Notes under the pieces: generated by a model | Databases searched by the model: none | What the model was told of the DNA's origin: nothing | What the model saw: only the letters and a program-made list of their open reading frames with translations | Assembly (NCBI RefSeq): GCF_054482525.1 | Contig: NZ_CM137006.1 | DNA length: 64,000 nucleotides | Reading direction: 5' to 3' (one strand) | Made by a program: the position numbers and the translations under genes | In this document: in pieces, positions 22,428-56,283 of the stretch | How the letters are laid out: each line of letters begins with the position of its first letter | Position numbering within the stretch: the stretch's first letter is position 1

Positions 22428-25274
22428 TCAGAAAGTCACGTTCAGTGTGGCCTGACCGTTATAACCTTCAGCGCTGCTGCCGCTGACACTGTGGGCATAA
22501 CCGGCCTGAACGCCCAGGGTGATATTTTCCCGGACACGGGCTTCCAGTCCGGCCTGCAGGTCCAGTGACGTGCCATTCTGGGACGGTGAGAACGTCATGT
22601 TACTGCCGGCTGCGGCTGTACCCATGCTCATGTCTCCCCGGGAGCTGAAGGTGCGGATAACAGAAGGCTGTACCCACCAGTTCACCGGCAGTTCACTCAC
22701 GCTGTGTTTGGCACTGTCGCGCAGGGTGTCACGGGATGAGGTGCCTTCGCCAAAGGTCATATCGTTGTGGCTGCCCAGACGGAAACCGGCACGCACATGT
22801 TGTGCACTGCCATGCCCGAACTTCACATAACCGGCGTTATCCTGACCGTCATCCAGGGAGAGCCCCTGCCAGGTGTACTGCAGTTGTGGCTCCAGCATCA
22901 GGTTGTCAGTGATACTGAAGGGCAGACCGGTTTCCAGTGAGCCCAGCCAGCCCCAGCCCCGGGCGCGGAAGTCGTTATTGTCCGATGACGCTTTCATGCT
23001 GTGGCGGGTTCCCTGTGCCACAATGTCAGCCCACAGGCCGGAGGATGTGTGTACCAGATTCAGGTATCCGCCCAGACTGCCGGCATCATCCCGGACCGTG
23101 CCGGCGCGGGAGCCGTCATCATCCTTAACATCAACGGAAGAATGGCCTGCAGCACCATACACCCCTGTCGTCAGAGACATACCGGCAACCTCTGTTCTGA
23201 GCAGGTCACCCTCCAGACGGACGAAGCCATAGCTGCCGCTGCTTTCCGGCGTGGCCCCACGGGCAATACCGCCGTTGTTATCGTGCCCGAGATGACCGCC
23301 CTGAATGCTGAGACGGACGCTGTTATTTTCACCGTTTACACCGGTCTGATGGCTGCGGGAGCCTGCCAGAATCCGGTCATAGTCCATTGCCTGTGTCAGC
23401 ATGGAGGCATACAGGGGGACTTCAGCACGATAAGCATTTTCACTGCGCAGGTACCAGTCTTCATCGCTGTCACGGTTCAGGGTGTAGTTAAAGGCGCCGG
23501 CCTGAAGCGGGCGGCTCAGGGCAAACGCACCTTCTTCTGTGGTGGCACCATTCTGTGCATCCACAACCCGGATACCCTGTCCGGTGGTTGCCACCCCGAG
23601 GTTACTGTTTCCGACATTTGTGAACGCAAGCCAGGTTTTGCCGGTTGCCTGGCCACCATTAATCACCAGCTGGTCAGAGGCATTGCTGCCATCAAGGCGA
23701 ACACGCATATTGATGGTGCCCCCCTGACCGGTGAGGTTACTGGTGGTCAGTTTATGGAACGTTACCGGGGAGTCGCCTTTTGCAACAGCACGGCTCAGCG
23801 CGGCATCCGGTGTCGTCTGATTATCAAAGTGAATCTCTCCTGCGTTAACAATATCGCCGGTACTGACCACATCACCATTCAGTACCATGCTGGCGCCTTT
23901 ACTGAGCTGTGTTCTGCCACTCAGACTTCCCCCGGCAGCCAGCGTCAGTGTTCCACGATGTCCGACAGTGGTGTTGCCTGCCTGTCCCCCGGCATTAACC
24001 GTAAAGCTGCCGCCATTTTCCAGTAGCAGGCCGCTGGCCTGCCCGGATATGCCATCAATACTGAACTTACCGCTGGCATTGGTCCCCTCAACAGTGGCAC
24101 CACTGTCTGCTATCAGGGCACCACCGGATGTCATGGTGACATCTGTTGCCTTACCACCGGCAGACACTGCCAGGGTACCGCCGTCATCCACCAGTGTTTT
24201 CTGCGCTGAATGGCCCTCCAGTACATCCAGGCGACCGCCGGACTCCAGAACAACGCCGTCAGCCTTACCGTTTTCCACCGTGAAATTGCCCAGACGGTTG
24301 CTGCCGGTGACGGTTGCCGCCGTACTGGTGACCAGTGCGCCGCCCTGCGTCAGGGTGACATTCGTGGCTGTACCACCGGCGTTCACCTGCAGTTTGCCTT
24401 TCTGGTTAACGGTGGTGAAATCCGCCAGACCACCTTCCTTGATAATCTGCCAGCCGTCACTGTTAACAACAGTGCCAGACGCCGTACCGCCGTTGTGCAC
24501 ATACTGGTACCCCCCATTCAGCGTGGTATCCAGTGCGTGACCATGTACAGTCTGGTCGCCGCCGGCATAAACCACAGTGGTATTTGCCGTTCCTTCAGCA
24601 GCCACAATCTGACGACCATTTTTATTGATGGTGGTGCGTACGGCATCTCCGTAGACGGTCTGCCCGGTATCACCATTTTCCGCATCCGGTCCTCCTTCCG
24701 CGCCAGTATTCACAACCGTGTCGGTTGCCATTGCGCCGGATTTGACGGCCTGCCAGCCCTTCTCATTAATGACGGTACCCGTTGCAATCCCGCCTTCATG
24801 TACCCACTGCTCACCGCCGTTCAGAGTGGTGTTCACTGCCTGCCCCTGAAGGCTCTGTCCGCCTCCGGCCCTGATAACCGTGTCTGAAACGCTTCCTCCG
24901 GCATTCACTCTCTGAAGACCACCACCGGTGACAGTAGTGTTGTTGGCGATACCGCCATTTTGTATCCATTGCCCGCCGGTATTGGCCTCGTTATCCGGCC
25001 CATACTCCAGACCGGTACTGATGGTCATTCCGTTGGCTGTACCGAAGACAATCTGGTTGTCATGATTTTCCAGTGCTCCGCCGCTCACGGTTTCTCCCGC
25101 CTGTACAACCGTGTCAGCAGCCAGTACCGGGAGTGATGTGACAGCAGCAAGAGACAGCGCAACCGCCACACCGGCGCGTTTTCCCCGTGAGCGGGCCAGT
25201 TCGGAGGCCACCACCAGGGTGCCCGTAATGTGATTCCATACCAGCCTGTAGCTGGTGTTCAGATGTCGTTTCAT
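22428..25274 (-). CDS. flu: Antigen 43 (Ag43/Flu) self-associating autotransporter adhesin
   Basis: Start at [18 protein letters not shown] (ATG 25274 behind AAGGAAAA); extended signal peptide, repetitive passenger, C-terminal beta-barrel ending ...[12 protein letters not shown]. Track ORF starts 75 nt upstream. Confidence 0.9.
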
Positions 25275-25487
25275 CAGCTTTTCCTTACAGAGGGTGAATA
25301 AAAAAGCCGGTACCCACAAATGTGGATACCGGCAGGTACAAAACAGCATGGTCAGATAAAGTGGTTTTTCCCGGACATAAATGCTTCCCCTCTCTCATCC
25401 GCCTGAGAAGTATCAGTCCGTTGTGTGCAATTCCGTTCTGCATGATGAAGAGATTCAGCTGCCTTTTCGCAGGCCATTAACCACTAT

Positions 25488-25646: not shown

Positions 25647-26519
25647 TCAGAAGAAAATCCAGTTCCATACAGCGCGGGCAACAGAGACCACCGAGTCACG
25701 GACGGCACGCAGAACCGTGCGTGCAACAGAGGCAATACAGACGCTCTCCGCTGTGTCAAATATCCGGTCCACCGCACCGGTAAACTGTTCACGGGCCTGA
25801 GACCGGACAGATTCCGTGCGCAGCTCGTCCTGCAGGCGGGTCATCAGGGGACTGGCGGCATGGTCGGGAAGCGCTGTCATGAGCGCACTGACCAGCGTAT
25901 CCAGTTCCCAGCCGGTGCGGGCCGATACGGCCACAACCGGATGTACGGGCCGGAACAGACGGAATACCGCCTCCGTTTTTTCGCGAATATTCTGTGCCTG
26001 TGCGGGAGAAGGCTGAATACCGGCCATATCCCATTCATGGCAGGGCTCCGTTTTGTCGGCCTGCGTCACCACAAACAGCACCTGCTGATGTCCCCGGTGC
26101 AGGATGTGTCGCCAGAAATACTCATCCACAGACAGGGCGCGGTCATCGGCTTTAATCAGCCACAGCACCAGGTCCAGTTCGGGCAGAATGTCACGGTACA
26201 GGGCTTCATACTCTGCATCTCTGTCCCGGCTCTCGCCCACCCCGGGCAGGTCAGTGATAACCATGCTGTGACCGTGGCCACTCAGACGGAAGCGCCGCAC
26301 TTCCCGGGTGCCGGCGTGAACATCACTGACCGGGGTGACCTCCCCCTGAAACAGTGCATTACAGAGTGAGGATTTACCGGCCCCGCTTTTACCCATAATG
26401 CCAATCACGGGTTCGTGACTGGTGAGTTTGCGCAGATGTTCCAGGATGTGACGGGAAAGTGAGTAAGGCAGGGAGGAGAGCGGTTTTTCAATTGCCTCAA
26501 TGGCATCAGACGGATTCAT
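25647..26519 (-). CDS. yeeP: YeeP/YfjP/YkfA-family GTPase (copy 1)
   Basis: P-loop GIMGKSGAGKSSLCNALF and DLPG motif; start placed at ATG 26519 (the longer track ORF begins with GTG and no SD). Confidence 0.8.
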   Translation of the reverse strand: MNPSDAIEAIEKPLSSLPYSLSRHILEHLRKLTSHEPVIGIMGKSGAGKSSLCNALFQGEVTPVSDVHAGTREVRRFRLSGHGHSMVITDLPGVGESRDRDAEYEALYRDILPELDLVLWLIKADDRALSVDEYFWRHILHRGHQQVLFVVTQADKTEPCHEWDMAGIQPSPAQAQNIREKTEAVFRLFRPVHPVVAVSARTGWELDTLVSALMTALPDHAASPLMTRLQDELRTESVRSQAREQFTGAVDRIFDTAESVCIASVARTVLRAVRDSVVSVARAVWNWIFF

Positions 26520-26748
26520 ACATGTATTCCCGGTGAAAAAAGACAAAACCCCGCACACCGGAAAGATGGCGGGGGGATTCACGGAGATAATATCTGCCTG
26601 AAATTATTTGGAATGCAGGTATATGTGGCTGATTTGTATCAGCTAATGAGTACAGGTCTGAATCTAATCTGACAGTCCGCTCTGTGCCAGGAGCGGACAT
26701 TGTTTTCCAACTATTACCTAAGCCTGCGAACCATCTCATCTTCACCCC

Positions 26749-27636
26749 TTAAATTCTCAATGTATCGATAACCGCTCGTAGGGCGGGTGACACATTGCGG
26801 TGCGGATAATAGATATATGAACCCTCCAGGCGTTGGCTGTAGCATTGCAAAACTCTGATTAGCGCCCCCTGTTCTATATCATCAGACACTAATTCCTCCG
26901 GAACATAGGCCAGCCCCAGACCTAGCCTTGCGGCTTTGGCTTCCATATAACTGTCAGCAAAGGCCCATTGTCCCTGAGGCTGATGGGTGATCTTTTTACC
27001 GTCCTGATTGAGTTCCCAGACATACAGACTGCCGTCGCCGAACTGGTAAGCGATGCAGGGATGACCTACTAAATCGGTGGGGGTTTGTGGAAATCCGTAG
27101 CGCTGAAAGTGCCCGGGCGTGCCGACAACAGCCATCTCCATATCGGGCGAAATGCGCACCGCAACCATACCGCTATCCACTTCCGAGCCCAGACGTATAC
27201 CGGCATCGAAGCGCTCAGTAATAATATCGACAAACCGGCTTTCGCTGATGAGCTCCAGCCGAATATCCGGGTATCGTTGTTTAAACACCGCCAGCTTCGG
27301 CAGCAGCACTTTATCAATGGCGTGCTGGCTCGCATTAATTCGGACCGTACCCGATGGTGTATGGCGATAATGGGCCAGTGTGGCAAGCCCCATATCTAAG
27401 GCGTCAAATCCAGATTCGACGTTTCGATAGAGTAACTCGCCGGCATGGGTGAGCGATAACTTGCGCGTGGTGCGTACCAGAAGCTGCACGCCCAGTCGCT
27501 CTTCCAGCTCGCGCACTGCACGGCTAATTCCTGATTGCGCCAGGCCAAGCCTCTGCGCGGCGGCGGTAAAACTCCCTTCTCGCACGACCTGCATAAACAG
27601 ATAGAGATCGTTATAGTTTTCCCGTTTCGCCATCAT
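26749..27636 (-). CDS. LysR-family transcriptional regulator
   Basis: 295 aa; N-terminal HTH FTAAAQRLGLAQSGISRAVRELEERLGVQLL plus LysR substrate-binding domain. Confidence 0.85.
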   Translation of the reverse strand: MMAKRENYNDLYLFMQVVREGSFTAAAQRLGLAQSGISRAVRELEERLGVQLLVRTTRKLSLTHAGELLYRNVESGFDALDMGLATLAHYRHTPSGTVRINASQHAIDKVLLPKLAVFKQRYPDIRLELISESRFVDIITERFDAGIRLGSEVDSGMVAVRISPDMEMAVVGTPGHFQRYGFPQTPTDLVGHPCIAYQFGDGSLYVWELNQDGKKITHQPQGQWAFADSYMEAKAARLGLGLAYVPEELVSDDIEQGALIRVLQCYSQRLEGSYIYYPHRNVSPALRAVIDTLRI

Positions 27637-51071: not shown

Positions 51072-51956
51072 TCAGAACAGGTGATCCCACAGTGTGACCA
51101 GTAGGTGGATAATGCGGGCCCGGGCTTTACGCAGAAGCTGTAACATCCAGGCCGGAAAACTGAACCGGGCAACGGCGTCGTCAAAACTTTTCCCGATGGC
51201 GTCACCAAAAGTCTGTTGTGCGTGTTTCCGGGCCTGTTCAGAGCGGTTTTCCCCCCGGATATGTGAATAAACCGCGCTGGTTGCCTGTGGTGGCAGTGCG
51301 TGGATCATCAGTGACACCAGTGCCGGAAGATTCCAGCCGACAGGCGCTGCAACGGAGAGTACCGGAAATGATGACGGGAACAGGGTGGCCACCCGGGCTG
51401 TTACTGTCGCCAGTGAGAGTTCCTGCTGACGGGACGGGCATTTTTCTGCGTCGTTCCATTCTTCAGCAGGAAACACGCGATCGGCATGGCTGAGAACAAA
51501 CAGAAAACGCGAGGGATCTGCACCTTCATTCAGTAAAAACTGATGCATGGCAATATCAGCAGCATACGCACGTTCATCAGCCCGCAGGATCCAGATAATC
51601 AGATCCAGTTCCGGCAGTAACTGACGGTAAAGCTCCCGGTATTCCTGATCATGCTGCGGTGTTTCACCAATGCCGGGCAGATCGACCAGCGTCATTCTGC
51701 GTTCACCAATCTGCAGGGTGAGGCGATGAGCCTGGCGGGTGCAGCCGTTCAGGGGATGCGTGGCGCAGATACGGGACTGAAAAATGGCATTACACAGACT
51801 GCTTTTGCCGGTGCCGGATTTACCCATAATGCCAATCACGGGCTCGTAATGAATAACACCGTGGAGATGTTCAAGGATTTTCTGGCGAATTTCTTCAGGA
51901 AGAAACGTCAGATATGATTTCACTTGTGCGGAGAGGGAAGAATGGCTGAATGACAT
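51072..51956 (-). CDS. YeeP/YfjP/YkfA-family GTPase (copy 2)
   Basis: 294 aa; P-loop GIMGKSGTGKSSLCNAIF, DLPGIG. Confidence 0.85.
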   Translation of the reverse strand: MSFSHSSLSAQVKSYLTFLPEEIRQKILEHLHGVIHYEPVIGIMGKSGTGKSSLCNAIFQSRICATHPLNGCTRQAHRLTLQIGERRMTLVDLPGIGETPQHDQEYRELYRQLLPELDLIIWILRADERAYAADIAMHQFLLNEGADPSRFLFVLSHADRVFPAEEWNDAEKCPSRQQELSLATVTARVATLFPSSFPVLSVAAPVGWNLPALVSLMIHALPPQATSAVYSHIRGENRSEQARKHAQQTFGDAIGKSFDDAVARFSFPAWMLQLLRKARARIIHLLVTLWDHLF

Positions 51957-52062
51957 ACCGGTATCCTGTTGATTTCACTGAACCGGATCACACTAATCCG
52001 GTTTATCATTCAGGTAATATGGGCGTGAAAAAATCTGGAGTGACAAAGTGTGGAGGGAAGAG

Positions 52063-52995
52063 ATGACTGCACAACAGATTGATGCATTACGCGACATTGT
52101 TAATAAGGCCAGAGTTACCGCCATTTGTAAAAGTCCGGCCTGGAAATATACTCTGCGAATACTGAAGCGCAGCAGACTCGTGTACAGAGGAGAACGGTCA
52201 GAATCGTTTGATCCGGAGAAACATTTTAATCGTTATACGGTGCGTTATCTGTACCTGCTTAACATAATGGCACTTGAGCTAAAGTCAGATACACGGATTA
52301 AGGTTGAGGTAGGTCAATGGTATCGCATGACGGGTAAACGTTTATCACTTAATGTCCCGCCTTTTATGCTGATTCCGCGTAATATCCGGAGAAAAGTGGA
52401 TGGATTCAGACAATCAGAAGGCGAAGCAACAAAACAAACGGCTCAACCGTTCACGGGCAGTTTGTATGAGGTTTTGAGCAGGGATAACGATTCGGCTGAG
52501 CTGGACGCCTGGTTTGCTGAACCACCGCTGACACGACAGGAAGTGCGGGAGGGGAGGCGTGTCACAGATTTTAATCCATGGGCGCAGTCTTCGTTTATTT
52601 GCCGTTCAGCATCCCCGACGTTTGAACTTTTTTACCAGGAATATAAGCGACTGGGATTAAGTGTTTTTTTTGATCCGGAAAATAGAAAACCTTTTGAAAG
52701 TATAAAAAAACATTTCGGGGATAAACCACAGTTACTGGAGAGACTGGGGGATGTGTTGTTTTTCACGTCGCTTTATAACCAGGGATGTTTAGGGGAGTTT
52801 GTCAATGCGCTTGTGGAAAAGGAGGACATTTATCTGAAAGCGTCCCCCGGGGAAGAAAAGCTGAAAGCACACCAGAAAATGATTAACTACATTGAAGAGT
52901 TCTGCAACAAAATGACGGAAAAGTATCTGATATCCGCAGCCAGGAGACACTACCAAAAGAAGAAAATCGGCAGGAGCAGAAGTGGTGAAAGTTAA
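52063..52995 (+). CDS. Hypothetical protein A (unknown function)
   Basis: ATG 52063 behind GGAGGG; 310 aa; no recognised motif; divergent from the GTPase gene. Confidence 0.55.
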   Translation: MTAQQIDALRDIVNKARVTAICKSPAWKYTLRILKRSRLVYRGERSESFDPEKHFNRYTVRYLYLLNIMALELKSDTRIKVEVGQWYRMTGKRLSLNVPPFMLIPRNIRRKVDGFRQSEGEATKQTAQPFTGSLYEVLSRDNDSAELDAWFAEPPLTRQEVREGRRVTDFNPWAQSSFICRSASPTFELFYQEYKRLGLSVFFDPENRKPFESIKKHFGDKPQLLERLGDVLFFTSLYNQGCLGEFVNALVEKEDIYLKASPGEEKLKAHQKMINYIEEFCNKMTEKYLISAARRHYQKKKIGRSRSGES

Positions 52996-53822
52996 TACAG
53001 TCTGTGGTTCTGAATCACCAGCCTGTGGTTCTGAATCAGATGTTCCAGGACAGCCTGTTGTGTTGTTTTCAGTTCTCTGGTCAGTCTGTCCAGAGTACGT
53101 TTTGCATCTGATGATATTTTAACGTTGATTTGTACCCGCTTATCTTTTTTTCCGTCGGTAAACTGTTTTCGGAATGCATTGTGCATCTTGTCGAAAAATT
53201 TTTCTTTTGCGGCAACCCCATAGTGAAGTACTTTTGGCTGCTGTAAGTATGGTGTATCTGCGGGGAATAAAATTTTTAGTAAAACTACGATAGCAATGTA
53301 TCTTTCGTTATCACTTACAGGATAAAACCAGGAAAGATACGTGTGCGGGATGCGTGCATTGATATATTTCCATGCCCATTCGAGTTGTTCTGTATTCTTT
53401 TTAAGCCATTTGGCTTCGTTTCTCTTTTCGATCTGCAGCCAGTTTTGATGCATTGTTGAGATGAAGCAATCTGATTGATTGTCAAGGATTAATGCATTAA
53501 TCCATTTGCTTATAACATCCAGTCTCATTTCATGATCTGAAGGAATTGTTGTTATGGGTATACTCCCCGCAGGAATCAGCCCCATCATGGCTGTATTGAA
53601 CCCTAATTCATTACGAACCCCAAGGAGTTTGGGATCTGTGTTAATTATAACTAACCAGAACCAGAATGCTGCAATTTCATTTTTTTTAACCCATTCAGGT
53701 ATGTGATTATCTGTCAGTTGTTTATCATTCAACAAATACTCAATTGTTTCATTTTCCCAGCTATATCCATTCACGTTATAACCATCTTCATATTGTTTCA
53801 TCTGATTACGCCTCAATCGCAT
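52992..53822 (-). CDS. Hypothetical protein B (unknown function) with C-terminal ribbon-helix-helix-like segment
   Basis: Low-GC ORF; C-terminus ...VKISSDAKRTLDRLTRELKTTQQAVLEHLIQNH; alternative starts at 53801 or 53915; 3' end overlaps gene A by 4 nt. Confidence 0.5.
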   Translation of the reverse strand: MRLRRNQMKQYEDGYNVNGYSWENETIEYLLNDKQLTDNHIPEWVKKNEIAAFWFWLVIINTDPKLLGVRNELGFNTAMMGLIPAGSIPITTIPSDHEMRLDVISKWINALILDNQSDCFISTMHQNWLQIEKRNEAKWLKKNTEQLEWAWKYINARIPHTYLSWFYPVSDNERYIAIVVLLKILFPADTPYLQQPKVLHYGVAAKEKFFDKMHNAFRKQFTDGKKDKRVQINVKISSDAKRTLDRLTRELKTTQQAVLEHLIQNHRLVIQNHRLY

Positions 53823-54494
53823 TCTCTTCTGGTGATTTTCACTATCACATGGAAATCGAATATGCAAGGAAGTTAACAAAAAAACATTGCATCCGGACTT
53901 GTGTTCAAAAAGCAATCACTTCAAGGCTTGATCACTCTGTGAGATGCTGAAGAACTATTCTCTAACTATTCACGATCTATTCTTGATCTATTCATAATAA
54001 ATTAAAACATGCTATCAACTACTGCTCATATCCTCCTTGGGTGTGTCGTTGTACTGTTCGACTGTTCTTGTGGTCAGATTAACAATCTGAAGAGTAAAAG
54101 CGACAGTAATCTGTCTGTTATAGTGGCGATAAAAACACTGAATGCGCATCCTGTATGTGAAATCCTGTCATGTGGAGCAGTAAGCAATGACAGGCATGCA
54201 TGTTATATGTGAAGGGGGCCGGGAGACGACATAATCAGTATGGCTGTCATTCTGGTTGTAAAACGCGATCACTTTCCGGGGGTAAAAGATGATATGGAAG
54301 CTGACAAACGGTTTGCTTCGGATTGTCTTTTCTGGGGCCTGAAATACGGGGACAGAAAAATAATTCCAGAGTAAATCTGCTCCGTTTTCAGAACAAAAAT
54401 CCCCATGCTGGCCGTGAAAAACTGAAACGAACATTCAGTCTGCATGAGTGTCTGAAGATGTTGAGAATGTCGGTATGATACTATATACACATGT

Positions 54495-54700
54495 TTTTAT
54501 TAAGTGTTATATACATATCTTTTTAAATAGATAATTCTACACATATTTTACTAAGTGTTTTTACTAAGCATTTCAGTAAGTGTTATACACGTATTTTCTA
54601 CTAAGTGTTTTACCAGACATACACATGTTTTCATAAACAATTCTACAAGTGTTTTCATTAAGTATTGTTATACACATTGCTTTGTCTGATACACATCCAG
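54495..54700. repeat. Iteron-like array of TAAGTGTT / ATACAC motifs
   Basis: At least five (C)TAAGTGTT copies at about 22-25-bp spacing, interleaved with ATACAC; inside a 1.6-kb ORF-poor region between hypothetical B and the Gp2-like gene at 55552. Confidence 0.5.
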
Positions 54701-55506
54701 TTTAGTAAACCTGTCAGTCCTGTTTTTACGTTAACTAAAATCAGCTTAATGCTACTACAAAACAATCTTTCCTGTTTAAGCAATCAATATGATATTCTAT
54801 TTTTCTGATGTTACATTTAACCTTTTATGAGTTTTCGTGTTTTTAGTCGTTAACCTGAGACAAGTGTTTTTATGTAAAACGCAAATCCGGCTGAGATAAC
54901 CTGGCGTGATTTACTGTGTGCTTACGATGATTTTGTTAAATGGTTTTATGGATGATTTTGTAGCGATAAGATTGATGAGATGATTAACTGGCCCTGGTGT
55001 TTTTTCTCAGTGCAAGGTGATTATCTTCATCATAAGGCTCTTTTCAGAAAAAGCGTGATGATTGGTTCTGGTGTTTTGATTCAGATGAGATTTACGTTAT
55101 CGATGGTTAATCGTTTTTATGGTGTGTTGAAAAGTAACGTTTTCAGGATAAGAAAATCGATTCTGATGTTGGTGGTTTTTGTTCTCGGGGCAGGGTTATC
55201 TGTAAACAGGTTTTAAACGCGCTATTCGGCTCTGTGATTGAGTTTTGTGGTTAAGCTGTAGGTTTTGGTATTGTTGTTGATTCACAGCAGCAGAAAGCGT
55301 TCTGATTGCGTTTTTGGTGTTTTGTTTGCACGTTCTGTTGATCCGTTTCCCTTCGGGCTTTGTAGTTTTTAAAAACCATTTATGCCGTTGTTGTGTGTTT
55401 TACCCTGCGTGTAGGTTTATCTTTTCTTCGTGGGGGATTCATTCTGTTTTAATCAGGAGCCATTGGCGTTGCTCAATGGCGGGATGCCGTAAAGTTTTAC
55501 CGCAGT

Positions 55507-55551: not shown

Positions 55552-56283
55552 ATGAATCAACCAATACACAATGCTTACTGGTTATCCCGTTTTGACAGCC
55601 TTCTCGACAGTGCCCTAGTGCAGCACCGTGCCGTCTCGTTAATTCGGGTGGATTTACGTTTTCCTGAGTATATGCCTGCCACTATTATGGATACCGATTT
55701 AGATTCAGCAGTGATTTCTCGTTTTTTCGAATCCCTGAAAGCAAAAATTCAGGCTTACCAGCGGAAAAAACGACGTGCCAACAAGCGTGTGCGTGCAACC
55801 ACTCTGCGTTATTTCTGGTGTCGGGAGTTTGGCAAGGAAAAAGGCAGGAAACATTATCACGTGATATTACTGCTCAACAAAGATACCTGGTGCTCGCCAG
55901 GGGATTTCACCGTTCCTTCTTCGCTGGCGACGCTGATCAAGCTGGCATGGTGCAGTGCTCTGCATCTCGAGCCCTGGCAGGGTAATGGACTGGTTCATTT
56001 TTCCAGGCGGACGCCTTTCCGTAAACCGACATCATCTGATGCTCGCCCTTCTTCCGATGATACGCCTTTGTCGGGTGGATGTTCTGAAACCAGGAAGGCT
56101 TCAGACAAAAAGCCGGGTGAAGCCGCTGTTCTCTGGGTCAAGCGTGGTGATGTGGAAGCGATGCAGAAAGCCATGGAGAGAGCCTGTTATCTCGTGAAGT
56201 ATGAGACGAAGCAGCATGACGGTTCTGGGCAACGTAATTATGGTTGCAGTCGTGGGCCGGGGCGTCTACTGGATGGCAGGTGA
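55552..56283 (+). CDS. Gp2-like protein (YfjJ/YagK family)
   Basis: 243 aa; VSLIRVDLRFP...RKHYHVILLLNKD...CYLVKYETKQ family pattern. Confidence 0.75.
   Translation: MNQPIHNAYWLSRFDSLLDSALVQHRAVSLIRVDLRFPEYMPATIMDTDLDSAVISRFFESLKAKIQAYQRKKRRANKRVRATTLRYFWCREFGKEKGRKHYHVILLLNKDTWCSPGDFTVPSSLATLIKLAWCSALHLEPWQGNGLVHFSRRTPFRKPTSSDARPSSDDTPLSGGCSETRKASDKKPGEAAVLWVKRGDVEAMQKAMERACYLVKYETKQHDGSGQRNYGCSRGPGRLLDGR

What the first reader, a model, noticed from the sequence alone, without database searches (positions are those of the whole stretch)
52063..53915. Convergent pair of unrecognised low-GC genes between island module 2 and an iteron array
Two ORFs of about 310 and 277-307 aa converge and overlap at their stop codons by 4 nt (52992-52995). 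I recognise no catalytic or family signature in either. Protein B ends in a ribbon-helix-helix-like segment (KRTLDRLTRELKTTQQAVLEHLI); protein A has a strong GGAGGG ribosome-binding site. They sit in the variable cargo position next to a YeeP-like GTPase and upstream of an iteron array, where mobile islands often carry defence or addiction functions. Best candidate in the window for an undescribed function, but the evidence is only position and lack of recognisable homology.
Basis: partly seen in the sequence, partly recalled or inferred. Interest (0 to 1): 0.7.

Follow-up and report, generated by a model that had tools for sequence, protein, structure and literature searches.

The report
Hypervariable regulator-like gene pair in island
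The two unrecognised genes are real. They are not random cargo: they form a swappable, fast-diverging cassette that always sits beside one GTPase gene in a widespread family of enterobacterial genomic islands, and one of them is a DNA-binding (ribbon-helix-helix) protein, so a regulatory switch is the likeliest role, though nothing has been tested.

Summary
A is 52063-52995 (+), 310 aa. B is 52992-53801 (-), 269 aa, not 277-307. The stop codons overlap in TTAA, and GC is 45% and 38%.

Neither protein matches Pfam, NCBIfam, PADLOC, PHROGs or PDB. The only signal is a weak but consistent ribbon-helix-helix (RHH; CopG/RepB-like) match in B's last ~55 residues.

Both are real protein families across Enterobacterales (down to 20-30% identity). 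In 15 of 15 loci where an A gene and its downstream neighbour could be read, a B gene converges on it. All 22 loci whose flank was readable (of 24 examined) lie beside the same YfjP-type GTPase, opposite the AlpA/rolling-circle Rep module.

In E. coli the pair lies in a discrete ~2.3-kb exchangeable cassette (about 52042-54356) with 91-96% identical flanks. Every alternative cassette sampled holds A and/or B relatives: A+B, A' alone (CFT073) or B' alone (Klebsiella).

So it is not a slot for unrelated cargo, and not an obligate toxin-antitoxin pair.

Four 11-bp-phased repeats upstream of B look like an RHH operator.

Best reading (about 0.4): an immunity-region-like regulatory cassette. A defence role is not excluded. 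Interest is moderate.

The parts
52063..52995 (+). Gene A, 310 aa. A basic (pI 9.6), mostly helical orphan protein. Within E. coli the N-terminal half (aa 1-150, nt 52063-52512) is strongly conserved and the C-terminal half (nt 52513-52992) is mosaic.
   Evidence: ORF. PGAP CDS WP_023155730.1. Family alignments A1 and A4, with conserved motifs S..AW.NTQ.MLKRSG, IVP..IRRKAD.F.Q, GSLY, LEC.RLG and LG.ALFF.FLY. pI. No hit in any library.
52992..53801 (-). Gene B, 269 aa. It has an acidic, Trp-rich helical N-terminal domain (aa 1-205, variable between alleles) and a basic C-terminal domain.
   Evidence: ORF. PGAP CDS WP_032153709.1. Alignments A3 and A5 with invariant W37, W121, W132, W142, W144. 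AF2 model with pLDDT 62.
53025..53150 (-). Ribbon-helix-helix DNA-binding domain of B (aa 218-259: RVQINVKIS-SDAKRTLDRLTRELKTTQQAVLEHLI).
52992..52995 (.). TTAA: the overlapping stop codons of the convergent genes. There is no room for a terminator between them.
   Evidence: Sequence. The same 4-nt overlap occurs in every E. coli allele with a B that is 22-97% identical in its N-terminal domain, and in metagenomic locus L010. Other loci show 13-121-nt gaps or a 26-nt overlap.
52998..53038 (.). A 21-nt tandem duplication inside the 3' end of B. It lengthens the C-terminus (HRLVIQN x2). Other alleles end in ...RLD.
53952..53995 (+). Four direct repeats, A[AT]CTATTC, spaced exactly 11 bp apart, 150-195 nt upstream of B. 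This is a candidate operator for the RHH protein. It overlaps a predicted rightward promoter (TTCACG-18-CATAAT, 53969-53998).
   Evidence: These are 4 of only 5 occurrences of the 8-mer in 64 kb. 0 of 200 dinucleotide shuffles gave 3 or more phased copies. Promoter scan. The AACTATT core recurs upstream of B in L017-L020 and in distant L010. Hafnia L016 has a different motif (GAAAACAT x3) at the same 11-bp phase.
51957..52041 (.). Conserved control block between the GTPase and gene A. It contains an inverted repeat at 51981-52003 (CCGGAT-N7-ATCCGG) whose arms co-vary between genera, and a -10-like GGTAATAT block at 52013-52039. It is the left boundary of the exchangeable cassette.
   Evidence: Intergenic comparison. 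The block is retained in A+B, A'-only and B'-only loci, including Klebsiella. Homology to other cassette types stops at 52026-52041.
52042..54356 (.). Exchangeable hypervariable cassette carrying A, B and B's upstream region. The flanks are 91-96% identical between strains whose cassettes are unalignable at DNA level.
   Evidence: Local blastn map of the window against L022, L024 and L026. Breakpoints fall at 52026-52041 and 54357-54358 in three independent cassette types.
51072..51956 (-). YfjP/YeeP-type GTPase. It is the first gene of the leftward operon (DUF905, DUF932, antirestriction, RadC, CbeA/CbtA) and the invariable neighbour of the cassette.
   Evidence: plus every locus table.

Best explanation
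A and B form the hypervariable regulatory cassette of a family of tRNA-integrating enterobacterial islands. The cassette is comparable to a phage immunity region. The islands are CP4-like, with the layout integrase, AlpA, HUH Rep, cargo, then a GTPase/antirestriction/RadC/CbtA operon.

- **B (inferred).** B is a dimeric ribbon-helix-helix DNA-binding regulator. Its conserved C-terminal RHH would bind the 11-bp-phased direct repeats between its own gene and the divergently oriented excision/replication module. From there it would set transcription of that module and of itself.
- **B's N-terminal domain (inferred).** This variable helical domain would be the sensing or partner-binding part.
- **A (inferred).** A is a basic protein of unknown biochemistry, transcribed divergently from the GTPase operon. 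I take it to be a nucleic-acid-binding co-regulator or counter-regulator.
- **Convergent layout (inferred).** The two genes meet stop-on-stop with no terminator. Transcription of one must therefore run antisense into the other, which would make their expression mutually antagonistic.

**Shown:** both gene families are real. Their synteny, the cassette boundaries, the RHH domain (weakly) and the repeat array are observed.

**Inferred:** DNA binding to those repeats, the regulatory targets, A's role and the transcriptional interference.
For: 2. A unique, helically phased four-copy repeat lies upstream of B and overlaps a predicted promoter. The same core occurs in other alleles and in a locus where B is only about 20-30% identical. 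A different phased triple repeat occurs in Hafnia.
3. Position: B is always divergent from AlpA or the HUH Rep, and A is always divergent from the GTPase operon, separated from it by about 100 bp (44 bp in Hafnia, 184 bp for the A' allele) that includes a conserved block.
4. Immunity-region-like population pattern: sharp cassette boundaries, 91-96% identical flanks, and deeply diverged but homologous alleles (20-30% identity) within one species.
5. B's DNA-binding domain is much more conserved than its N-terminal domain: 77-100% against 36-97% among four E. coli types.
6. A is consistently basic (pI 9.2-9.9; residues 1-120 have pI 10.5).
7. The A'-only allele carries an extra N-terminal C-x4-C...C-x2-H segment where B's RHH is missing.
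8. Each family occurs alone, so the pair is not an obligate toxin/antidote couple.
9. No defence model matches either family.
Against: - There is no experimental or direct computational evidence of DNA binding or of any regulatory target.
- The RHH hits for the window protein itself are below significance (E 0.002-0.27).
- Phased repeat arrays exceed chance in only 3 of 12 loci.
- The L021-type allele lacks the AACTATTC motif.
- No strong sigma-70 promoter was found for B or A.
- A's structure model is poor (pLDDT 51) and gave only non-specific matches, so its role is a guess.
- A's C-terminal type is not locked to B's type: L018 has B at 97-100% but A's C-terminal half at 68%. That gives no support for a specific A-B interface.
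- Hypervariability with conserved flanks is equally typical of defence and counter-defence genes.
Confidence: 0.4

Rival explanations
1. The cassette is an undescribed anti-phage defence or counter-defence module. A and B would be effector and sensor proteins under arms-race diversification. It is carried by the island at a fixed hotspot next to the antirestriction/RadC operon.
Against: PADLOC gave no hit for the window proteins or for 20 diverse relatives. No enzymatic or effector domain is recognisable. The slot never held an unrelated gene in 24 loci, whereas true cargo hotspots hold unrelated systems. The RHH domain and operator-like repeats point to gene regulation. Neither family occurs in the phage record collection, and both are very rare on plasmids.
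Confidence: 0.2
2. B is specifically a copy-number or replication regulator (CopG/RepB/CopB-type) for the neighbouring rolling-circle Rep and its iterons. A is an accessory replication or maintenance protein. The pair would act only when the island is excised and replicating.
For: B's best sequence matches are to replication-regulator RHH families: RepC_IncLM, RepA/CopB PRK13702 and PF10723 RepB-RCR_reg. NCBI names some relatives 'replication regulatory RepB family protein'. In E. coli, B faces the iteron array and the Gp2-like Rep.
Against: In Citrobacter, Serratia, Klebsiella and metagenomic loci the gene facing B is alpA, not rep. The cassette's fixed partner is the GTPase operon, not Rep. 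B is 3-4 times longer than CopG or RepB regulators, with a large extra domain. Nothing links A to replication.
Confidence: 0.2
3. The pair is a toxin-antitoxin or addiction module (an RHH antitoxin B neutralising a toxin A) that stabilises the island.
Against: The genes are convergent, not co-transcribed. The RHH is C-terminal rather than N-terminal, and B is as large as A. A' occurs without any B in 463 E. coli genomes, and B' occurs without A in Klebsiella and E. coli. No toxin family is recognisable.
Confidence: 0.05

Closest known systems
Ribbon-helix-helix transcriptional repressors of mobile elements (CopG / RepB-RCR_reg PF10723 / IncFII CopB-RepA2 / Arc-Mnt)
   Same: B's last ~55 residues have the beta-alpha-alpha pattern and weak HMM similarity to these families. 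Tandem, helically phased repeats lie next to the gene, as for many RHH operators.
   Different: B carries an extra ~205-residue Trp-rich helical domain with no known relative. The RHH is at the C-terminus. The HMM scores are far below family thresholds (18 bits against a cut-off of 80 for RepC_IncLM). DNA binding is untested.
Immunity or master-repressor regions of phages and satellites (lambdoid cI/cro regions; SaPI Stl facing the str-xis-rep module). The comparison rests on my own knowledge of these systems.
   Same: A regulator gene faces the excision/replication genes. The cassette is highly divergent between otherwise near-identical elements. The DNA-binding part is conserved and the rest variable.
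   Different: The DNA-binding fold is RHH, not HTH. The two genes are convergent rather than divergent. A second divergent junction faces the GTPase operon. No inducer, helper phage or excision phenotype is known for these islands.
Convergent-transcription switches (prgX/prgQ of pCF10; face-to-face promoters of coliphage 186). From my own knowledge.
   Same: Two regulatory genes are transcribed towards each other with overlapping 3' ends, which allows transcriptional interference and antisense RNA effects.
   Different: In those systems the overlap and its effect were demonstrated. Here only the gene geometry is known (4-nt stop overlap, no terminator). The overlap is not universal in the family: other loci have gaps of 13-121 nt.
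Type II toxin-antitoxin pairs with RHH antitoxins (ParD, CcdA, MazE9-like)
   Same: A two-gene unit on a mobile element, with one partner carrying an RHH domain.
   Different: The orientation is convergent. The RHH is C-terminal. Each partner occurs alone in many genomes. No toxin fold is recognisable.
'Uncharacterized integrated MGEs' carrying defence islands and a RadC/ArdB/CbtA 'moron' operon (Bell et al. 2025 preprint, PMC12458937)
   Same: The window's element has the same parts list: P4-like integrase, AlpA, HUH Rep, and a GTPase-DUF932-ArdB-RadC-CbeA/CbtA operon.
   Different: The section of that paper I read (section 11) and a term search of its text do not mention the A/B cassette or the GTPase junction. 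Here no cargo lies between Rep and the GTPase other than the cassette.

Membership tests
Ribbon-helix-helix (MetJ/Arc/CopG) DNA-binding superfamily (B, C-terminal domain) | Sequence profile match to an RHH family above threshold | tested here: inconclusive
   Window protein: RepC_IncLM E 0.002 (18 bits, cut-off 80), RepB-RCR_reg 0.079, RHH_1 0.27. Family members: RepB-RCR_reg best 4.6e-5, with 3 of 11 members at E<=0.1. Arc-like and CopG-like PHROGs at 0.016-0.028.
Ribbon-helix-helix (MetJ/Arc/CopG) DNA-binding superfamily (B, C-terminal domain) | Beta-strand, helix, helix topology of about 45 residues | tested here: met
Ribbon-helix-helix (MetJ/Arc/CopG) DNA-binding superfamily (B, C-terminal domain) | Dimer inserts a two-stranded sheet into the major groove of repeated operator half-sites | not testable with these tools
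   Only circumstantial: four 11-bp-phased repeats at 53952-53995.
Type II toxin-antitoxin module | Two adjacent co-directional genes in one operon | tested here: not met
   The genes are convergent in all 15 A+B loci.
Type II toxin-antitoxin module | The toxin partner is not found without its antitoxin | tested here: not met
   A' occurs alone in 463 E. coli genomes, and tblastn finds no B remnant there. B' occurs alone in Klebsiella and E. coli GN4751.
Type II toxin-antitoxin module | Recognisable toxin fold or family | tested here: not met
   No Pfam, NCBIfam, PADLOC, PHROG or PDB hit for A or for 20 relatives.
Known anti-phage defence systems (PADLOC-DB v2) | HMM match of the component proteins to a system model | tested here: not met
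   0 families for both window proteins. Among 20 relatives there are only isolated hits at E 0.0025-0.026 (JetA, JetB, Cas11, WH_III-A). PDB profile searches do not reproduce them.
Variable cargo of a genomic-island hotspot | Unrelated genes occupy the same slot in related islands | tested here: not met
   All 24 loci examined beside this GTPase type hold A- and/or B-family genes. The slot is nevertheless a discrete exchangeable cassette.
Master-repressor / immunity region of an integrated mobile element (functional class, not a sequence family) | DNA-binding regulator gene placed divergently from the excision/replication genes, with repeated sites between them | tested here: met
   B faces alpA or rep in every locus. 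Repeats lie upstream of B.
Master-repressor / immunity region of an integrated mobile element (functional class, not a sequence family) | Loss of the regulator derepresses excision/replication, and a specific inducer relieves repression | not testable with these tools
   Needs genetics.
Death-fold (PYD/CARD/DD) six-helix bundle (B, N-terminal region) | Six-helix Greek-key bundle of about 80-90 residues | tested here: inconclusive

The most novel reading that the evidence does not exclude
The cassette is the sensing switch of a satellite-like island. B would be a new kind of master regulator: a death-fold-like or otherwise novel sensor domain fused to an RHH. It would be held on phased operators until a helper phage or incoming plasmid protein binds its hypervariable domain. 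A, possibly with the adjacent GTPase, would form the opposing arm of a convergent-transcription toggle. That toggle would decide between silent carriage and expression of the excision/replication genes and the antirestriction/RadC/CbtA operon. The many heterotypic alleles would then be 'immunity types' shaped by an arms race with inducers, as for SaPI Stl. That would give a first handle on how CP4-like islands, present in most E. coli, are mobilised.
Probability: 0.15. Interest if true: 0.65.

Novelty: new variant of a known kind. Interest (0 to 1): 0.42.

Why it matters
CP4-like islands sit in a large share of E. coli genomes. This GTPase type is full-length in 1866 of 5426 complete genomes, A/B DNA is in 742, and A' is in 463. 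These islands ferry defence, virulence and fitness cargo, yet how they are regulated and mobilised is unknown. A recent preprint still calls the class 'uncharacterized MGEs'.

This work identifies a discrete, hypervariable cassette at the junction between the excision/replication genes and the antirestriction/TA operon. The cassette has one DNA-binding partner and a candidate operator. That gives a concrete, cheap experimental entry point (EMSA, reporter fusions, deletions). It also gives two protein families that deserve a name.

If the cassette turns out to be a defence module instead, it adds a system absent from current catalogues.

Tried and rejected
- **Library searches for both proteins** (NCBIfam, PADLOC, PHROGs, Pfam). 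Nothing for A. Only sub-threshold RHH hits for B.
- **The same searches on 20 distant relatives and on whole alignments.** Still nothing for A.
- **PDB sequence and profile searches.** Negative.
- **Weak PADLOC hits.** A member to JetA (E 0.011) and B member to JetB (E 0.0037). This looked like a kleisin/KITE coincidence. I rejected it: one member each, not reproduced by profile searches against PDB, which holds Wadjet structures (my recollection that it does).
- **Co-variation between A's C-terminal half and B's N-terminal domain**, as a sign of a specific interface. Rejected, because L018 combines the window's B with a different A C-terminal type.
- **Rfam scan of 50-58 kb.** No credible RNA family.
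- **Phage records.** No homologue of A. Plasmids: only 2-4 records.
- **Second GTPase in the window** (25647-26582, 37% identical, beside Ag43 and a LysR gene). It has no A/B relative next to it.
- **Literature searches.** Nothing describes these genes.
Full report
**1. The observation**

The window holds two convergent ORFs as described.
- A runs 52063-52995 on the + strand (310 aa), with GGAGGG five bases before its ATG.
- B runs 52992-53801 on the - strand.
- B is 269 aa, not 277-307. PGAP calls this start in identical DNA of strain W2-5. All homologues begin at the same methionine. The alternative upstream ATG is missing in the S88 allele.
- The two stop codons share the palindrome TTAA (52992-52995).
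- GC content is 44.6% (A) and 38.1% (B), against 50-57% in the operon to the left.

The neighbours are a YeeP/YfjP-like GTPase (51072-51956, -) and, 1.75 kb to the right, a repeat array followed by an 'inovirus Gp2 family' HUH Rep (55552-56283, +).

**2. Are they known?**

No.
- A has no hit at all in Pfam, NCBIfam, PADLOC, PHROGs or PDB sequences. That holds for the single sequence and for a profile of 20-22 relatives.
- B has only weak hits, all in its last ~55 residues and all to ribbon-helix-helix regulators: RepC_IncLM E 0.002, RepA/CopB PRK13702 0.011, RepB-RCR_reg 0.079, RHH_1 0.27.
- At family level the RHH signal is consistent. RepB-RCR_reg reaches 4.6e-5 in one member. Arc-like and CopG-like repressor PHROGs match the S51 allele. 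NCBI already labels some relatives 'RepB family'.
- RefSeq calls both genes 'hypothetical protein'.

**3. Both are real protein families**

- A word-indexed search found only Escherichia relatives.
- An exhaustive profile search found about 17 further full-length clusters of A at 22-30% identity.
- Their sources include Citrobacter amalonaticus, Hafnia alvei, Serratia, Lelliottia and Enterobacter.
- Conserved A motifs are S..AW.NTQ.MLKRSG, IVP..IRRKAD.F.Q, GSLY, LEC.RLG, LG.ALFF.FLY and a basic tail. The family is uniformly basic, pI 9.2-9.9.
- B relatives go down to about 22% identity. They keep five invariant tryptophans and the RHH. Foldseek adds Salmonella.

**4. Context: not ordinary cargo**

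Wherever an A gene and its downstream neighbour could be read (15 of 15 loci), a B-family gene converges on it.
- Those loci are the window, L002-L006, L010-L012, L014-L021 and L024.

In every locus whose flank was readable, the GTPase lies about 100 bp on the other side of A, divergently oriented (44 bp in Hafnia). AlpA or the HUH Rep lies beyond B, also divergent.

The 4-nt TTAA overlap recurs in all E. coli alleles, even where B is only 22% identical in its N-terminal domain, and in metagenomic L010. Other loci show 13-121-nt gaps or a 26-nt overlap.

**5. It is nevertheless a swappable cassette**

Local blastn of the window against loci with other alleles shows the pattern.
- The flanks are 91-96% identical.
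- Homology stops at 52026-52041 and resumes at 54357-54358 in three independent cassette types.

Alternative cassettes are:
- A+B of at least six types (window, S88, L019, L020, L021/L002, S51);
- A' alone (CFT073 and 462 other genomes). This is a 376-aa protein related to A by hhalign (probability 97.9%, E 3.5e-13), with an extra N-terminal C-x4-C...C-x2-H segment and no B remnant;
- B' alone, co-directional with the GTPase (E. coli GN4751, Klebsiella).

No unrelated gene was seen in the slot in 24 loci.

Prevalence among 5426 complete E. coli genomes:
- 1866 genomes carry this GTPase type at full length;
- 742 carry A/B DNA, 499 of them over at least 80% of the pair's length;
- 463 carry A'.

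Within E. coli, B's RHH is 77-100% conserved among four types while its N-terminal domain is 36-97% conserved. A's N-terminal half is 74-86% conserved and its C-terminal half 50-69%.

The types recombine. L018 joins the window's B to another A C-terminal type, so I found no locked A-B co-variation.

**6. Cis elements**

- *Upstream of B.* Four copies of A[AT]CTATTC sit exactly 11 bp apart (53952-53995). They are 4 of the 5 occurrences in 64 kb, and no dinucleotide shuffle gave even three phased copies. They overlap a predicted rightward promoter.
- *Recurrence.* The core AACTATT recurs at the same relative place in the S88, L019 and L020 alleles and in distant L010. Hafnia has GAAAACAT x3 at 11-bp phase. 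In the remaining loci only two-copy matches were seen, which chance explains.
- *Between the GTPase and A.* An ~85-bp block (51957-52041) holds an inverted repeat whose arms co-vary between genera: CCGGAT/ATCCGG, CCTGGC/GCCAGG, GCCGG/CCGGC. It also holds a conserved GGTAATAT(G/A)G block. The whole block is kept in A+B, A'-only and B'-only loci, including Klebsiella. It therefore belongs to the GTPase operon's control region and marks the cassette's left edge.

**7. Interpretation**

The features below match what is known of phage and satellite immunity or master-regulator regions and of RHH plasmid regulators. That comparison comes from my own knowledge of lambdoid cI/cro, SaPI Stl and CopG.
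- A C-terminal RHH that stays conserved next to a variable helical domain.
- An operator-like phased repeat.
- A fixed position between two divergently transcribed modules.
- An immunity-region-like allele pattern.

I therefore take B to be a DNA-binding regulator. A would be a basic co-regulator or counter-regulator. The stop-on-stop convergence would provide mutual interference.

Only the anatomy is shown; every functional step is inferred. I put this reading at about 0.4.

- *Defence or counter-defence.* This stays open at about 0.2, because hypervariability and low GC fit it equally well and PADLOC cannot exclude new systems.
- *Replication control.* A narrower role for B gets about 0.2. 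It is weakened because alpA, not rep, faces B in several genera, and because the constant partner is the GTPase.
- *Toxin-antitoxin.* This is unlikely (0.05), given the convergent genes and the fact that each partner occurs alone.

**8. What remains weak**

- A 2025 preprint describes this island class as uncharacterised, possibly satellite-like MGEs. The section I read and a term search of its text do not mention these genes (PMC12458937).

**9. Verdict**

This is a real, recurrent and so far unnamed two-family module. Most likely it is a new variant of the regulatory cassettes of integrated mobile elements rather than a new kind of system. Interest is moderate.

Noticed in passing
window 52998-53038: A 21-nt tandem duplication (CAGyCTGTGGTTCTGAATCAC x2) lies inside the 3' end of gene B. 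It extends the protein by a repeated HRLVIQN. Other alleles end ...RLD. It sits immediately next to the TTAA stop overlap.
   Followed up: partly
window 54004-54480: Noncoding DNA between B and the iteron array is better conserved among E. coli cassette types than B itself. It starts at AAAACATGCTATCAAC. PGAP annotates nothing here. Two unannotated ORFs overlap it (54009-54212 +, 67 aa; 54168-54434 -, 88 aa). It could be a small RNA, a leader or a binding region.
   Followed up: no
window 54485-54873: The AT-rich repeat ('iteron') array has ACA[CA][AG]TGTTTT-type units at irregular 12-25-nt spacing, upstream of the Gp2-like HUH Rep. It is conserved in loci whose A/B cassette is completely different (CFT073, GN4751).
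   Followed up: partly
window 51981-52003, and the same position in L014, L015, L007: An inverted repeat in the GTPase leader region has arms that change in a compensatory way between genera: CCGGAT/ATCCGG, CCTGGC/GCCAGG, GCCGG/CCGGC. This suggests an RNA (or single-stranded DNA) hairpin rather than a fixed protein site.
   Followed up: partly
L010:8900-9046, L014:10931-11077, L015:11617-11763, L016:11010-11156, L007:7626-7772 (-): A conserved structured leader lies directly upstream of alpA in distant islands. It has three helices, and in one of them TCTCCC pairs with the alpA Shine-Dalgarno GGGAG. 6 of 23 predicted pairs show compensatory changes. No Rfam family was found in the window scan. 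The window's own alpA region (about 62.0-62.2 kb) does not align with it.
   Followed up: partly
window 51012/51072: The window's island (like L018 and L019) lacks the ~680-bp WYL-domain HTH regulator gene. In S88, CFT073, S51 and others that gene sits between the GTPase and the 225-aa hypothetical gene. Homology breaks cleanly at these coordinates.
   Followed up: no
window 25647-26582 (-): A second GTPase paralogue, 37% identical, lies next to an Ag43-like autotransporter (22428-25349) and a LysR-type regulator (26749-27636). It has no A/B relative beside it, so the cassette is specific to one GTPase subtype.
   Followed up: partly
L022:6070-6330 (CFT073 A' protein, aa 1-85): The A'-only allele has an N-terminal extension with the pattern K-C-x4-C-x15-C-x2-H-Y-x-R-F, followed by a very basic stretch. 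It looks like a zinc ribbon but matches no Pfam, NCBIfam or PHROG model.
   Followed up: partly
H1-H6, H38, H58 (e.g. NZ_CP060933.1 1043430-1046816): In several strains an IS3-family element has inserted inside the A/B region, splitting the match into two pieces. The cassette can therefore be disrupted without loss of the island.
   Followed up: no
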